From the IMG/VR virus record IMGVR_UViG_3300032322_002195, positions 32,001 through 96,000 of that record: a stretch of 64,000 bases of DNA, one strand, 5' to 3'. Source of the DNA: a virus. The notes beneath the pieces are model-generated. The model did not search any database, was not told where the DNA came from, and worked only from the letters and a program-made list of their open reading frames with translations. Shown one piece after another: positions 3,441 to 62,342 of this stretch. Within the stretch, counting starts at the first letter, position 1, and every line of letters starts with the position of its first letter. The translations under genes and the position numbers were made by a program.

Positions 3441-3871
3441 TGGCAGACATAAAACCAATACCAACATCTGGCTTCAATTTCTCATCAATAAATGGAGTTT
3501 TAAATTTAATTCTAAGTGCATTCTCAACTCCTGAGCCACCAATTGAACCATTACCACCACCATTAATAATGATTGGTGCAAAACTAAGACCTGGGATTTC
3601 AGCACAAAGCATAGCATCCGAAATAATAAGTAAACAATCAGATTCTGGTAGGGTTGTTGGTGATGTGTTTGCCGATGGACCAAATGTTGAAGAAGCTATG
3701 GAATTAATAAGAGTTCAACAAATAGTAAGCACCATATTAAATGAAGCTAAAGTTGATGTCGTAATCCCTCCAGGTATTGCCATAACAGCTGTTGGTGGTA
3801 ATGCAGGTGGTCCAGTTGTTTGTCAAGGTTTTACTACCAGCATGGGTATAGGTGATGGTATAATTCGTTAA
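3440..3871 (+). CDS. hypothetical protein, probably baseplate-associated
   Basis: 143 aa, Gly/Pro-rich C-terminus, coupled to the upstream ORF. Confidence 0.6.
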   Translation: MADIKPIPTSGFNFSSINGVLNLILSAFSTPEPPIEPLPPPLIMIGAKLRPGISAQSIASEIISKQSDSGRVVGDVFADGPNVEEAMELIRVQQIVSTILNEAKVDVVIPPGIAITAVGGNAGGPVVCQGFTTSMGIGDGIIR

Positions 3872-8609: not shown

Positions 8610-10517
8610 TTATCTCAATTCAGCAACATTGAATGTAGGTACACCGTCTACTCTAACATGCCCGTAGAACCTGTTGTTTACGACCTTCTTAGCGTAACGA
8701 GTCATGATACCTTTAACTGGAGCAAAGTTGAAAGGATTGTACATAGTTGGTGTAAGTTGCAAAGGCACGTATGGTGCGTAGATGTAACCAGTATCCAACA
8801 ATGATTTACCTTTATGACCGATGATTACAGAGTAAGCTGGTGCATATGGGTCACGGAATACTTGATAACGTCCACCCAATGTACCGATTCTTTCGATACC
8901 CATGTTATATTGGTCTTGCTCAGGGTTAGCATCAGACACGTGGAAGTATTCTAAATCATCGAATACAGCTGAAATTTCAGAAGATACAACGATAAAGTTA
9001 GCACCACCACGAAGTGTTGATTTGTGGATTTGAGCAGAGATTTGGTTAATCTTAGTGATAAGAGTTTGGTTCCAGTCCTTTTGAGTGTAAGGGCTAGCAG
9101 CAGAAGAAGCTCTTCTCCATCCGTTGTAGTCCCAACGCAATTGCCATGCAGCAGCTTTACGAAGGTCTCTAAGGATTTCACGGTCAATTTCCGCAGCAAC
9201 TTGCTCTGACAACATAGCTGTCAATTCAGCTTCAGCGTCAATGTTGTGGAATGCACTAACATCTTGAGCCAATTCTGGTGACCAAGTAGCACGTAATTTT
9301 CTTTCTTCAACGGCAACAACAACTTCATCAAGTCTGAAAGAAACTTCATTCAATTCAGTTTCCAATTCTAGAGAAGCGTATTCAGCCCATGCAAATACAA
9401 AGTTATAAGCAGTAACAGCTGATACAGTTGAAGCTGAAGCACCTATATAACCATCATAAGTAGCTGTACCAGCAGCAGCAGCACCAGTTCCAGCAGTAGT
9501 ACCTACAGGGTGAGTCAAGTCAAGCTCAACATACATAACACCATTAGGAGTAGTCAATACAGGATAAGTTTGACCATTAGATGTAAAAGTATTTGTTGTT
9601 TGAACAATACCTTGACCGTATTTTTGAGTAACCAAACGGAATGGAACTTCTTGGTTAGCAGCGATAATGGTATTACCGTTAGCGTCAAGGATAGCATTTG
9701 TAGTTACGCAATGCAAAGAAGCTAAGAATGATTCAGTATCCATTACGTTACCATCAGGACCAGTCAATACTTCACGACCACCACCACTATTAGTTGGGTT
9801 GAAACCACTCATGCTAAACATAGCGTATCTCAATGAACCATCATTAGCAGTTGGGAAAGAAGTCGTTCCAGCAGGGCTTAGAACAACAAACTGACCATCT
9901 GAATTTAATCTAACAGCGTTGTTGTTAGCTAAAGTATAAGTTCTGATAGTAAGTGTACCTTTAGATTGGTCAAACATACCATCGTTGTAGAAAATATCAT
10001 ATAAGTTCTTAGCCATAAATGGAGTTGTAGCGCATGAACCATTAGCTGGAAGAACGCAAGATGGAATGCCAGTAGAAGCAAATGATGTGTGAGCTGAATA
10101 CTGAGTAAGATAAGTATCGTTAGTTGGGCTAGTACCAGCATAGTCATTACCAGCAACAGGAGGTGTAGAACCGTCTACACGGCTAGATGTAAGAGGTACG
10201 AAATAGAACAATTTACCGATAGGCATGTTCATAGCTTGAACAGACACGATGTCGTTAGCTAATAATTTAGAGAAAACACGTCTTACGATAGGGAATACTA
10301 CTGTTTCGAATGAACCAGAAGAAGTTGAAGTTGTAGTCTCAGTCAACAAAGTTGAAGCTTGGTTTTCATACAACTGAGCGATGTTTTCTTTTACGTGGCC
10401 TTTAAGACCTTCAAGGAAGCCTAAGCTTTCCCATTTTGATTGGGTTTCTTTACGGATAGCCTTCATGTGGTTTAATCCGATGTTACCCACTTGTCCAGAT
10501 GTTAATAAATGTGACAT
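8610..10517 (-). CDS. gp23: major capsid protein (T4 gp23-like) with a large insertion
   Basis: VSVQAMNMPIGKLFY, RKLRATWSPELAQDVSAFHNIDAEAEL, GYIYAPYVPL and PVKGIMTRY motifs. Confidence 0.97.
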   Translation of the reverse strand: MSHLLTSGQVGNIGLNHMKAIRKETQSKWESLGFLEGLKGHVKENIAQLYENQASTLLTETTTSTSSGSFETVVFPIVRRVFSKLLANDIVSVQAMNMPIGKLFYFVPLTSSRVDGSTPPVAGNDYAGTSPTNDTYLTQYSAHTSFASTGIPSCVLPANGSCATTPFMAKNLYDIFYNDGMFDQSKGTLTIRTYTLANNNAVRLNSDGQFVVLSPAGTTSFPTANDGSLRYAMFSMSGFNPTNSGGGREVLTGPDGNVMDTESFLASLHCVTTNAILDANGNTIIAANQEVPFRLVTQKYGQGIVQTTNTFTSNGQTYPVLTTPNGVMYVELDLTHPVGTTAGTGAAAAGTATYDGYIGASASTVSAVTAYNFVFAWAEYASLELETELNEVSFRLDEVVVAVEERKLRATWSPELAQDVSAFHNIDAEAELTAMLSEQVAAEIDREILRDLRKAAAWQLRWDYNGWRRASSAASPYTQKDWNQTLITKINQISAQIHKSTLRGGANFIVVSSEISAVFDDLEYFHVSDANPEQDQYNMGIERIGTLGGRYQVFRDPYAPAYSVIIGHKGKSLLDTGYIYAPYVPLQLTPTMYNPFNFAPVKGIMTRYAKKVVNNRFYGHVRVDGVPTFNVAELR

Positions 10518-50859: not shown

Positions 50860-50891
50860 TTTGGTAGATTGAAAAAAAGTTTGTATATTTG
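50860..50891 (+). promoter_or_regulatory. Bacteroidota-type promoter driving the ncRNA cluster
   Basis: tttg-gtagattgaaaaaaagtttg-tatatttg. Confidence 0.8.
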
Positions 50892-50966: not shown

Positions 50967-51066
50967 AGTCAGAGAAGCATGATTAGGTTATATGCCCTAC
51001 TTGGGTTGAAGTAGTTACTTCGTAATTCCGCATGGGTGATAGCAGGTTCGAATCCTGTCCTGACTA
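50967..51066 (+). ncRNA. tRNA-like RNA with atypical interior
   Basis: Acceptor AGTCAGA/CCTGACT and T arm GCAGG-TTCGAAT-CCTGT; no recognisable D or anticodon arm. Confidence 0.6.
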
Positions 51067-51152: not shown

Positions 51153-51231
51153 GGTTAAATGGCGTAGCTGGATAGCGCAAGGATAGTGGCAGACCCCACC
51201 CTTTACACAGGTTCGAATCCTGTTTTAACCA
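51153..51231 (+). ncRNA. tRNA-like RNA with aberrant anticodon arm
   Basis: Acceptor GGTTAAA/TTTAACC, D arm GCG..GG..CGC, T arm ACAGG-TTCGAAT-CCTGT; bulged anticodon stem with a 6-nt loop. Confidence 0.65.
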
Positions 51232-51330
51232 CGAATGCAGTTCAAATCTGCTCGTTGACTGAGGTTATGGTAAGTAGACTATTGAGGTACGCACTCAACT
51301 TAGAAATAAGGTAGAATGAAGTGAACAGTC

Positions 51331-61384: not shown

Positions 61385-61843
61385 ATAAAATAGCCAAACC
61401 CCTGTCCACATTTCGGGCTCAGGGGTTGACTTTTTCTAATAATTGGCCGCATATAAGCTGCCTTCGGTTGTTAATGCGGGCATAGCCGCCCGCTGGCTGA
61501 ATTAAGAGGTGAGAGCCCACCCCAATCAATCGGCTCAAACTGATTGAGATGTCACCACTTTTTGGCTCAATGGGATGCCTTCCCACCGACTTACGTCCCT
61601 TGGCAGGGAACCTTTTTCGGATGTTTGGGTACACAGTGCCAATCTGCCTTTCGGGAGGGGCTGATGTCCCATTTTTAATATAAGGTTTGACCGACCTTAG
61701 TTAATCCTTTTCAGGGGATACGGATGGTGCATTAGCATACATATCACTATGATGTTTTTTGTAATCCTAGGACAGCTACCACAGTCTACATCCTAGGTAC
61801 TCAACGCTTTTATAACTAATGTGTAAGTTAAGCGTAAACTTAC
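61385..61843 (-). ncRNA. large structured non-coding RNA of unknown class
   Basis: Own promoter (-7 box 61848-61855), GC-rich, many hairpins, no credible ORF; ends approximate. Confidence 0.65.
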
Positions 61844-61898
61844 AAGACAAAGGTAAGAAATAAATTTGATATTACCAAATTTATTTTCAATTTTTTTG

Positions 61899-62022
61899 CG
61901 GTCATAATTGGACTCGAACCAATAAGATGATGCTTATATGTCGTTATTCCTAGCAAATTGGTATTTATCATTTCCAAGTTGCCGCTATCTGATTAATCTC
62001 TAGCTTTACGACTAATATGACC
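61899..62022 (-). ncRNA. tRNA-like RNA with a large structured insert
   Basis: Acceptor GGTCATA/TATGACC and T arm ATTGG-TTCGAGT-CCAAT; own promoter at 62049. Confidence 0.65.
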
Positions 62023-62268
62023 AAGTATTAATTTCAATGAACGTGAGACAAAGGTAAGAAATAATTTTGATATTACCAAATTTATTTTACCTTTTCAATG
62101 GCTGAAGATATTATCGTTCCTAATATAATTAATAATGATTGGGTACCGATAATTTTTAAATAAATTTCGTTTTTATCACTCCAAAGAGCAAGTACGGCTA
62201 TTGGAAACATACTAAGTAATATCAACCCAAGAATAGCGTTAATAGTTTTTTTCATTTTTTTGTTTTTG

Positions 62269-62342
62269 TGCGCCCTGCTGGGCTCGAACCAGCGACCTAT
62301 TGATTATGAGTCAATTGCTCTGACCAACTGAGCTAAGGGCGC
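62269..62342 (-). tRNA. tRNA with CAT anticodon, probably tRNA-Ile2 (lysidine type); CCA not encoded
   Basis: GCGCCCT-TAGCTCAGTTGGTCAGAGC-A-ATTGA-CTCATAA-TCAAT-AGGTC-GCTGG-TTCGAGC-CCAGC-AGGGCGC-A; resembles ileX-type tRNAs. Confidence 0.92.

What the first reader, a model, noticed from the sequence alone, without database searches (positions are those of the whole stretch)
61899..62022. tRNA scaffold carrying a ~90-nt foreign structured insert
Seen: a perfect 7-bp acceptor stem and canonical T arm (TTCGAGT loop). The D and anticodon arms are replaced by a branched region (gtcgt...acgac enclosing tagc...ttgg...ccaa...gcta). It has its own promoter and sits just upstream of the large ncRNA. Inference: RNase P/Z-type processing would release a stable RNA that presents a cargo domain, comparable to the tRNA-like domains of tmRNA or YrlA Y RNAs. 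It could also be a decoy for anticodon nucleases or uncharged-tRNA sensors.
Basis: partly seen in the sequence, partly recalled or inferred. Interest (0 to 1): 0.7.

Follow-up and report, generated by a model that had tools for sequence, protein, structure and literature searches.

The report
Phage tRNA-derived small RNA, non-decoding
A large uncultured phage carries, under its own promoter, a 124-base RNA gene that keeps the top half of a methionine-type tRNA but has three non-tRNA helices where the decoding arms should be; it is probably a working small RNA of unknown job, like the still unexplained RNAC of phage T4.

Summary
On the minus strand (62022 to 61899) there is a perfect 7-bp acceptor stem joined directly to a canonical 5-bp T arm with loop UUCGAGU. 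This combination occurs 3 times in the 108.8-kb phage record against 0.01 per shuffled genome; the other two are ARAGORN-called tRNAs. It is not a tRNA: ARAGORN finds nothing at default settings, the Rfam tRNA model scores 15 bits against a cut-off of 29, and no other Rfam family matches.

Cutting out any single insert does not restore a tRNA better than shuffled interiors do. A model built from the element picks out tRNA-Met(CAT) genes of related phages, so the frame descends from that lineage. About 68 nt of non-tRNA sequence sit where the D arm should be, and the anticodon arm has decayed.

The gene has its own copy of the phage's repeated promoter and lies just upstream of a ~450-nt ncRNA. 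The only relatives found (three phage contigs) keep the leader, three interior motifs and the ncRNA, but have no T arm.

Best reading (0.5): a stable, non-decoding RNA whose ends are made by tRNA-processing enzymes. Processing and function are inferred, not shown. This scan has noted similar phage RNAs on other DNA. One tool, the look-up of encoding contigs, was closed.

The parts
62049..62080 (-). Private promoter copy (TTTGG-N-TACCTTTG, Bacteroidota -33/-7 type)
   Evidence: A regex scan finds 31 minus-strand copies at 41.8-63.8 kb. Most are followed by an ATG within 4-32 nt; this one is not. It is 31/32 identical to the next copy at 61879-61848.
62023..62048 (-). 26-nt leader. The 11-mer ACGUUCAUUGA (62044-62034) is identical in the sister phages
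   Evidence: The 11-mer occurs once in the own genome. All other IMG/VR matches to -7 box plus 11-mer lie in unrelated sequence.
61899..62022 (-). tRNA-derived small RNA gene, 124 nt (G+1 at 62022, discriminator G at 61899, no encoded CCA)
62016..62022 (-). Acceptor stem, 5' strand GGUCAUA
   Evidence: Seven Watson-Crick pairs with 61906-61900; pair probabilities 0.81-1.0.
61900..61906 (-). Acceptor stem, 3' strand UAUGACC
61907..61923 (-). T arm AUUGG-UUCGAGU-CCAAU
   Evidence: Canonical loop with a G53-C61-type closing pair. It is the only part the Rfam tRNA model aligns with confidence.
62008..62012 (-). Neck helix, 5' strand GUCGU (pairs with 61944-61940)
   Evidence: Present in the optimum fold when acceptor and T arm are enforced. 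Only 12% probability in the free ensemble.
61940..61944 (-). Neck helix, 3' strand ACGAC
   Evidence: ACGAC also occurs in domain 1 of the sister-phage RNA.
61984..62004 (-). Hairpin 1: GCUA / 13-nt loop / UAGC. Carries the conserved blocks UAGAGAUU (62002-61995) and GAUAGC (61989-61984)
   Evidence: Pair probability ~0.7. Both blocks are shared with L002, L057 and L067.
61953..61982 (-). Hairpin 2: 9 pairs with one mismatch, and a 12-nt loop AAAUGAUAAAUA (61973-61962) holding the conserved AAUGAUA
   Evidence: Pair probability 0.9-1.0. The sister RNA has CCC/GGG around a 12-nt loop with the same heptamer.
61924..61945 (-). Probable remnant of a tRNA(CAU) anticodon arm and variable loop (AACGA-CAUAUAA-GCAUC-AUCUU); the stem no longer pairs
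   Evidence: Alignment to tRNA-Met of L056 and L010 and to the L034 element. Suggestive only: the sequence test on the whole interior gave p~0.12.
61385..61879 (-). Context: second promoter copy (61879-61848) and a ~450-nt GC-richer ncRNA with a terminator. It is inherited together with the small RNA
   Evidence: A 54-nt core is 94% identical in L002 and 90% over 60 nt in L067. No Rfam match.
62268..62342 (-). Context: ordinary tRNA-Met(CAT) gene 246 nt upstream
   Evidence: ARAGORN, and Rfam at 74.9 bits.

Best explanation
This is a real, non-decoding small RNA gene that descends from a phage tRNA(CAU) gene. It keeps the 12-bp acceptor/T-arm minihelix and a canonical T loop. The D-arm region is replaced by about 68 nt that, together with the decayed anticodon arm, fold into a 5-bp neck helix carrying two hairpins.

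Proposed mechanism. It is transcribed from its own promoter copy. Host RNase P cuts between U-1 and G+1 and removes the 26-nt leader. The 3' end is trimmed after the discriminator and receives CCA. The result is a stable RNA of about 127 nt with tRNA-like ends. Its working surface is the interior module, whose single-stranded motifs (UAGAGAUU, GAUAGC, and AAUGAUA in a 12-nt hairpin loop) bind an unknown protein or RNA partner.

Shown: the sequence anatomy, the promoter copy, the non-tRNA status, the tRNA(CAU) ancestry of the frame, the motif sharing with sister phages, and the linkage to the ncRNA. Inferred: expression, processing, stability, and any partner.
For: - The minihelix is far beyond chance: 3 observed against 0.01 per shuffle.
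- All 12 stem pairs and the T-loop consensus are intact, while the neighbouring anticodon-arm remnant no longer pairs. That argues for selection on the minihelix (inference).
- It has its own promoter copy and no ATG where the other cassettes start their ORFs.
- A model built from it alone hit 9 other places in 628 kb of related loci. Seven are tRNA-Met(CAT) genes, and one is a 79-nt degenerate CAU-type tRNA-like gene with its own promoter, L034:8395-8473 (tRNA).
- Sister phages (flanking proteins ~80% identical; p175, p95, p100 and p85 syntenic) carry an RNA at the same slot with the same 11-nt leader and three collinear motifs. It also has a hairpin with a 12-nt loop holding AAUGAUA on a different stem (UUGG/CCAA against CCC/GGG), and the same downstream ncRNA.
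- That three-block motif pattern gave only about 24 chance matches in the whole metagenome collection.
- The tRNA-like fold lies within 0.9 kcal/mol of the MFE.
Against: - No expression data.
- Only two sequence variants exist, so there is no covariation statistic.
- The sister RNA has no T arm, so the tRNA shape is not needed for whatever is conserved.
- The thermodynamic model gives the T stem only 5-12% probability. The fold z-score is -2.4 for the 124 nt but -0.09 with flanks.
- Identity over the shared interior stretch is about 55-60% (my count), no higher than third-codon-position identity in flanking genes (0.48-0.58). Only the clustering of matches into exact blocks suggests constraint.
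Confidence: 0.5

Rival explanations
1. It is a decaying tRNA pseudogene: a former tRNA(CAU) gene disrupted in its D-arm region and drifting without function. The promoter persists only because it belongs to the repeated cassette architecture.
For: - The frame derives from tRNA(CAU) and the anticodon arm has decayed.
- The sister phages have lost the T arm.
- L034 carries another degenerate CAU-type copy.
- No wider family was found.
- Interior identity to the sister RNA is about the same as at synonymous sites.
Against: - Twelve of 12 minihelix pairs and 7 of 7 T-loop consensus positions are intact beside an anticodon stem that has lost its pairing.
- The 11-nt leader and three exact blocks survive despite rearrangement.
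- The gene stays linked to the ncRNA, and both use the same TACCTTTG promoter subtype in both lineages.
Confidence: 0.2
2. It is a tRNA mimic or decoy. The top half recruits a host or defence protein that binds tRNA, such as an anticodon nuclease, a modification enzyme or a sensor. Hairpin 2 presents an anticodon-loop-like AUGAUAA (compare CUGAUAA of tRNA-Ile and CUCAUAA of tRNA-Met).
For: - The AAUGAUA heptamer is the block kept in a hairpin loop in both lineages.
- The frame comes from a CAU-type tRNA.
- Phage tRNAs that counter tRNA-targeting defences are known (recalled, not checked here).
Against: - The loop has 12 nt, not 7.
- The sister RNA has the heptamer but no tRNA frame.
- No nuclease, repair or Ro60 gene was found in the fragment.
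- Interior similarity to tRNA cores is not significant, p~0.12.
Confidence: 0.12
3. It is a cis-acting processing module for the downstream ncRNA. Read-through transcripts from the first promoter are cut at the tRNA-like element, as in tRNA-linked transcripts, and this sets the 5' end or the dosage of the 450-nt RNA.
For: - There is no terminator between the element and the ncRNA.
- The first terminator hairpin follows the ncRNA.
- The adjacency is conserved in the sister phages.
Against: - The ncRNA has its own near-identical promoter 20 nt downstream of the element.
- The sister RNA lacks any RNase P/Z-type minihelix.
Confidence: 0.1
4. It is a functional tRNA with an intron, as reported for Lak megaphages; the insert is removed to give a decoding tRNA.
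For: - Lak phages of Prevotella carry tRNA genes with 'enigmatic', conserved introns (PMC6784885).
- ARAGORN in intron mode at an 80% threshold forces a tRNA-Val with a 41-nt intron.
Against: - That ARAGORN setting 'tRNAs' in the 108-kb genome.
- Nothing is called at the default or 90% thresholds.
- Of 2530 single excisions, only 2 give a default call (a weak 92-nt Pro-AGG). In contrast, 75% of 60 shuffled interiors in the same frame give at least one call, and 65% give at least two.
- No group I intron match reached E<=10 on this stretch.
Confidence: 0.04
5. It is a small protein gene: the 45-codon frame 61977-61840.
For: An open frame runs from hairpin 2 through the next promoter. AUG-AUA is shared with the sister RNA.
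Against: - The sister frame is 20 codons long and unrelated after 'MI' (read).
- The frame overlaps the whole next promoter.
- It starts about 75 nt after the promoter, where the other cassettes start at 4-32 nt.
Confidence: 0.02

Closest known systems
Bacteriophage T4 RNAC (species 1 RNA, rnaC) and RNAD (species 2), small stable RNAs of the T4 tRNA region
   Same: - Both are phage-encoded RNAs of about 120-140 nt lying among or next to tRNA genes.
- RNAC carries a canonical T arm (CCGGG-UUCGAAU-CCCGG) next to the 3' strand of a terminal stem, with non-tRNA hairpins inside.
- Its biological role is still unknown (PMC3014915; PMC9697503).
   Different: - There is no specific sequence kinship. 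The model of this element scores rnaC at 12.5 bits, no better than ordinary T4 tRNAs at 9-18 bits.
- This element has a perfect 7-bp acceptor and its own promoter.
- RNAC's terminal stem is imperfect at the annotated coordinates, and it is cut from the tRNA transcript (the latter recalled).
tmRNA (SsrA) tRNA-like domain
   Same: Same topology: the 5' and 3' ends form the acceptor stem, a T arm is present, there is no normal anticodon arm, and a helix leads from the junction to a larger body.
   Different: - Position 3-70 is U-A, not the G-U alanine identity pair.
- The interior is about 92 nt, with no tag reading frame and no pseudoknots.
- ARAGORN's tmRNA mode and Rfam find nothing.
Introns in tRNA genes of Lak megaphages (Devoto et al. 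2019, PMC6784885)
   Same: Oversized tRNA-type genes in large phages of Bacteroidota hosts. The inserts are conserved and unexplained.
   Different: In Lak phages, removing the insert leaves a recognisable tRNA of defined type. Here no single excision does so better than chance.
YrlA / bacterial Y RNAs (tRNA-like module bound with Ro60)
   Same: A non-coding RNA with a tRNA-like T-arm module.
   Different: - In YrlA the RNA ends lie in the Ro-binding stem and the acceptor-like stem is closed by a loop (recalled). Here the ends form the acceptor.
- No Rfam match.
- No TROVE/Ro60 gene in the 108-kb record, which is only about 32% of the genome.

Membership tests
tRNA (Rfam RF00005) | Whole cloverleaf scores at or above the curated cut-off (29 bits), or is called by ARAGORN at default settings | tested here: not met
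   15 bits, with only the 3' 45 nt aligned. ARAGORN default gives no call.
tRNA (Rfam RF00005) | 7-bp acceptor stem stacked on a 5-bp T stem with a UUCRANY loop | tested here: met
tRNA (Rfam RF00005) | D arm with G18-G19, and a 5-bp anticodon stem with a 7-nt loop | tested here: not met
   No such arms appear in the best folds. Hairpin loops are 13 and 12 nt. There is no GG in hairpin 1's loop.
Intron-containing tRNA (Lak-phage type or group I) | Removing one contiguous insert leaves a canonical tRNA | tested here: not met
   2 of 2530 excisions give a weak call; 75% of shuffled interiors give at least one call and 65% at least two. No group I match reached E<=10 on this stretch.
tmRNA | G3-U70 pair, tag-peptide reading frame with resume and stop codons, pseudoknots | tested here: not met
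   Position 3-70 is U-A. ARAGORN -m finds nothing even at an 80% threshold. No Rfam match.
YrlA / Y RNA | Match to the Rfam model, and a neighbouring Ro60 (TROVE) gene | tested here: not met
   No match at E<=10. No TROVE match in the 108-kb record; the record is incomplete.
T4 RNAC-like phage small stable RNAs | Lies in the phage tRNA region, with a T arm next to a terminal stem and a non-tRNA interior | tested here: met
   tRNA-Met lies 246 nt upstream. T4 rnaC was read from NC_000866.
T4 RNAC-like phage small stable RNAs | Sequence or structure homology to rnaC or rnaD | tested here: not met
   The model of this element scores rnaC at 12.5 bits, within the range of ordinary T4 tRNAs.
T4 RNAC-like phage small stable RNAs | Accumulates as a stable RNA processed by RNase P | not testable with these tools
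   Needs RNA from infected cells.

The most novel reading that the evidence does not exclude
The small RNA and the adjacent ~450-nt structured RNA form a two-RNA module. Both are inherited together in the only two lineages that have either, and both are driven by the same promoter subtype. The tRNA(CAU)-derived RNA would then be the partner, substrate or guide of the large RNA (a ribozyme or the core of an RNP). Its tRNA top half would borrow host tRNA enzymes for maturation. That would be a phage RNA machine of a kind not yet described.
Probability: 0.1. Interest if true: 0.8.

Novelty: new variant of a known kind. Interest (0 to 1): 0.45.

Why it matters
Phage tRNA regions are usually read as codon-supply kits. 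This locus is an example of a phage tRNA gene turned into something else. The part that host tRNA enzymes recognise is kept intact, the decoding part is rebuilt, and the gene travels with a large structured RNA.

T4's RNAC and RNAD have had no known function for decades. If tRNA-framed RNAs recur in uncultured phages, as several notes of this scan suggest, they may form a common and unstudied class of phage regulators or counter-defence RNAs. This case adds a traceable origin (the tRNA(CAU) lineage) and a sister form in which the scaffold changed while three motifs stayed. Those motifs are where mutagenesis should start.

Tried and rejected
- **Rfam.** Gathering and E<=10 searches on the window and on the sister locus gave no family.
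- **Intron reading.** Rejected by the excision test against shuffles.
- **Interior as a stretched tRNA-Ile(GAU) body.** The resemblance to L106 tRNA-Ile was noted by eye. The sequence test against 46 phage tRNA cores was not significant: 35 of 300 shuffles scored as well. Dropped as a claim.
- **attP or host tRNA fragment.** The 21-nt T-loop-to-acceptor string has no exact match in 185,579 species genomes or in IMG/VR.
- **More family members.** None found with:
  - exact and gapped patterns in viral, metagenome and genome collections;
  - loci around two flanking proteins, and no relatives of the 57-aa neighbour;
  - nhmmer for the ncRNA;
  - the model search of five whole related phage records, whose two weak long hits lie in coding sequence.
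- **More distant relatives.** They have protein genes in this slot.
- **Small RNA against ncRNA duplex search.** Uninformative; it returned unbounded duplexes.
- **Winogradskyella.** A 26-nt block match in an intergenic region proved to be the promoter region upstream of a SAM-II riboswitch on the other strand. The genus consensus differs from the motifs. Judged to be chance.

Full report
**Setting.** The window is bases 32001-96000 of a 108,837-bp linear IMG/VR phage record that CheckV rates 32% complete, so the phage is probably a jumbo phage. From about 41.8 to 63.8 kb the minus strand carries 31 copies of a Bacteroidota-type promoter (TTTGG, about 20 nt, TAnnTTTG). Most are followed within 4-32 nt by the ATG of a small ORF. 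The finding lies in this array, 246 nt downstream of an ordinary tRNA-Met(CAT) gene at 62342-62268.

- GGUCAUA at its 5' end;
- AUUGG-UUCGAGU-CCAAU followed directly by UAUGACC at its 3' end;
- a discriminator G, U at -1, and no encoded CCA.

This gives a 7-bp acceptor stacked on a 5-bp T stem with a consensus T loop. A script searched for a T arm (G-C closing pair, loop TTCRANY) abutting a 7-nt strand with a perfect Watson-Crick partner 30-170 nt upstream. It found three cases in the record: two ARAGORN-called tRNAs and this element. The mean over 200 dinucleotide-preserving shuffles was 0.01, and only 2 shuffles had any hit. The motif GGTTCRANTCC occurs 3 times against 0.15 expected.

**It is not a tRNA.**
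- ARAGORN at default settings does not call it.
- The Rfam tRNA model gives 15 bits against a cut-off of 29 and aligns only the last 45 nt.
- No other Rfam family reaches E<=10, and ARAGORN's tmRNA mode is silent.

**Fold.** The free MFE is -26.8 kcal/mol and does not form the T arm. With the acceptor and T arm enforced, the optimum is -25.9 kcal/mol. It consists of:
- a 5-bp neck helix, GUCGU (62012-62008) with ACGAC (61944-61940);
- hairpin 1, GCUA / 13-nt loop / UAGC;
- hairpin 2, nine pairs with one mismatch and a 12-nt loop AAAUGAUAAAUA.

The evidence from energy alone is weak. The z-score is -2.4 for the 124 nt and -0.09 with flanks, and the T stem has only 5-12% probability in the unconstrained ensemble. 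Energy models do not count T-loop tertiary contacts.

**Intron test.** Lak megaphages of Prevotella have tRNA genes with unexplained introns (PMC6784885), so this reading was tested. ARAGORN's intron mode calls nothing at default or 90% thresholds. At 80% it forces a tRNA-Val with a 41-nt intron, but that setting also 'tRNAs' in the 108-kb genome. I then deleted every contiguous stretch of 20-74 nt from the interior, 2530 variants in all. Only two gave a default ARAGORN call, a weak 92-nt Pro(AGG). With the same frame and a shuffled interior, 75% of 60 shuffles gave at least one call, many of them dozens. The real interior is therefore no better than random sequence at hiding a tRNA.

**Origin of the frame.** A covariance model built from the element alone was run over 628 kb of related phage loci that contain about 48 distinct tRNAs of many isotypes. 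It returned nine non-self matches (tRNA identities):
- seven tRNA-Met(CAT) genes: L056 at 28.4 bits, L104, the window's own, L040, L106, L125 and L010;
- L034:8395-8473 at 28.1 bits;
- L139:3191-3289.

The L034 element is a 79-nt gene with its own promoter. It has acceptor, D and T arms but only a 4-bp/4-nt hairpin in place of the anticodon arm, and ARAGORN does not call it. Positions 78-99 of the element (AACGA-CAUAUAA-GCAUC-AUCUU) line up with the anticodon arm and variable loop of these CAU tRNAs, although the stem no longer pairs. So the frame descends from a tRNA(CAU) gene, and the non-tRNA segment is about 68 nt, sitting where the D arm should be.

I also asked whether the whole interior is a stretched tRNA body. 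A resemblance to tRNA-Ile(GAU) can be drawn by eye. A test against 46 tRNA cores was not significant, since 35 of 300 shuffles scored as well. I make no such claim.

**Relatives.** Loci were fetched around two flanking proteins. Only three IMG/VR contigs carry the downstream ncRNA: 3300028581_000022, 3300028557_000060 and 3300022752_004048. Their flanking proteins are 77-83% identical and syntenic: p175, p95, the RNA pair, p100 and p85. At the slot of the finding they have a different RNA of about 165 nt, with these features:
- the same promoter subtype, TACCTTTG;
- the same 11-nt leader, ACGUUCAUUGA;
- a first domain closed by an 11-bp stem, with a hairpin abutting its 3' strand;
- a second domain, closed by 13 pairs, that carries UAGAGAUU, GAUAGC and a CCC/GGG hairpin whose 12-nt loop holds AAUGAUA.

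The finding has the same three blocks in the same order, with AAUGAUA again in a 12-nt loop but on a UUGG/CCAA stem. The sister RNAs have no T loop: ARAGORN finds no tRNA in L002, Rfam gives no tRNA match, and the model of the finding does not hit them. The three-block pattern gave only chance hits elsewhere, about 24 in the metagenome collection and 13 in genome contigs, so the sharing at a syntenic slot reflects homology. More distant relatives have protein genes in this slot.

**How strong is the case for function?** Third-codon-position identity between the two lineages is 0.48-0.58, so the divergence is large but not saturated. By my own count, identity over the shared interior stretch is about 55-60%, which is no higher. 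What stands out is that the matches cluster into exact blocks of 11, 8, 6 and 7 nt, between spacers and stems that differ and have been rearranged.

The stronger argument comes from within the element. The anticodon-arm remnant has lost its pairing, while all 12 minihelix pairs and the T-loop consensus are intact. This is hard to reconcile with neutral decay (inference). A private promoter, the absence of a conserved ORF, and conserved linkage to the ncRNA point the same way. The sister frame from the shared AUG-AUA is 20 codons and unrelated, against 45 codons here.

**Mechanism proposed.** Transcription starts at the private promoter. RNase P cleaves at U-1/G+1, the 3' end is trimmed after G73, and CCA is added. 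The product is a stable RNA whose neck-and-two-hairpin module displays the conserved motifs to an unknown partner. Every step after transcription is inferred from what is established for RNase P, RNase Z and CCA-adding enzyme acting on acceptor/T minihelices.

The rival readings, with my confidence in each, are:
- pseudogene, 0.2;
- tRNA mimic or decoy, 0.12;
- processing module for the ncRNA, 0.1;
- intron-bearing tRNA, 0.04;
- small ORF, 0.02.

No Ro60 (TROVE), CCA-adding or RtcB gene occurs in the 108-kb fragment.

[quoted passage not shown] Reading the T4 record shows that rnaC ends in a canonical T arm plus a 9-nt tail, with non-tRNA hairpins inside. There is no specific homology: the model of the finding scores rnaC like any T4 tRNA. 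tmRNA shares the topology but none of its defining features. YrlA differs in topology and context.

Earlier notes of this scan report similar tRNA-framed RNAs in other phages. They are unchecked leads and I do not count them as evidence. One of them pointed me to the Lak paper.

**Verdict.** This is a real, lineage-restricted, tRNA(CAU)-derived small RNA gene of unknown function: a new variant of the little-understood kind represented by T4 RNAC. Interest is moderate.

Noticed in passing
window 61385-61847 (-); L002:10366-10830; L067:4330-4790 (-): A ~450-nt GC-richer ncRNA with its own promoter and terminator. A 54-nt core is 94% identical in L002 and 90% over 60 nt in L067, while the rest is barely alignable. 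No Rfam match at E<=10. It was found only in the lineages that also have the small RNA.
   Followed up: partly
window 62080-62049 and 61879-61848; L002:10130-10165 and 10338-10373: The two promoters of the RNA pair are 31/32 identical to each other in this phage and 27/32 in the sister phage. Each pair is more alike within a genome than between genomes, and both use TACCTTTG where most cassettes have TATCTTTG. This suggests concerted evolution or co-regulation.
   Followed up: partly
L034:8340-8473: A 79-nt tRNA(CAU)-like gene with its own promoter in another phage (IMGVR 3300021430_000416). It has acceptor, D and T arms but only a 4-bp/4-nt hairpin for an anticodon arm. ARAGORN does not call it, and no homologue was found in the other loci.
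   Followed up: partly
window 50967-51066 (+); L139:3191-3289 and 3456-3542: The other oversized tRNA-like RNA of this window shares its acceptor and T arm (AGTCAG.../GCAGG-TTCGAAT-CCTGT-CCTGACT) with two elements in L139. ARAGORN calls one of these an 87-nt tRNA-Ile(GAT) with a long extra arm.
   Followed up: no
window 51153-51232 (+): This tRNA passes the Rfam cut-off (46.4 bits), but ARAGORN reports a two-base 'anticodon'. The anticodon arm looks like a long bulged stem with a 6-nt loop.
   Followed up: no
window 58925-58895, 50497-50466, 49633-49602 (-) and 50860-50891 (+): Further promoter copies with no ATG, or (50860) no obvious ORF start, in the next 45 nt. They may mark other non-coding units or long leaders in the cassette array.
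   Followed up: no
L002:10168-10180 with 10310-10321: In the sister RNA the conserved leader (UUCAUUGAGAGAG) can pair with the 3' end (CUCUCUAUGAGG). This competes with the 13-bp stem that closes domain 2, so two alternative folds are possible.
   Followed up: no
L223:1483-1530 (Winogradskyella sp. HB-48); also L231 and L170: The three interior motifs recur, 26 nt in blocks, in the spacer just upstream of a SAM-II riboswitch on the opposite strand, where they overlap a TAnnTTTG promoter box. The spacer is conserved in about 9 Winogradskyella genomes, but their consensus (TAAAGATT, GATAGA) departs from the motifs. Judged a chance resemblance.
   Followed up: yes
L002:7335-7427: A second, partial copy (31 residues, 77% identical) of the C-terminus of the 175-aa protein lies 0.8 kb downstream of the full gene in the sister phage.
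   Followed up: no
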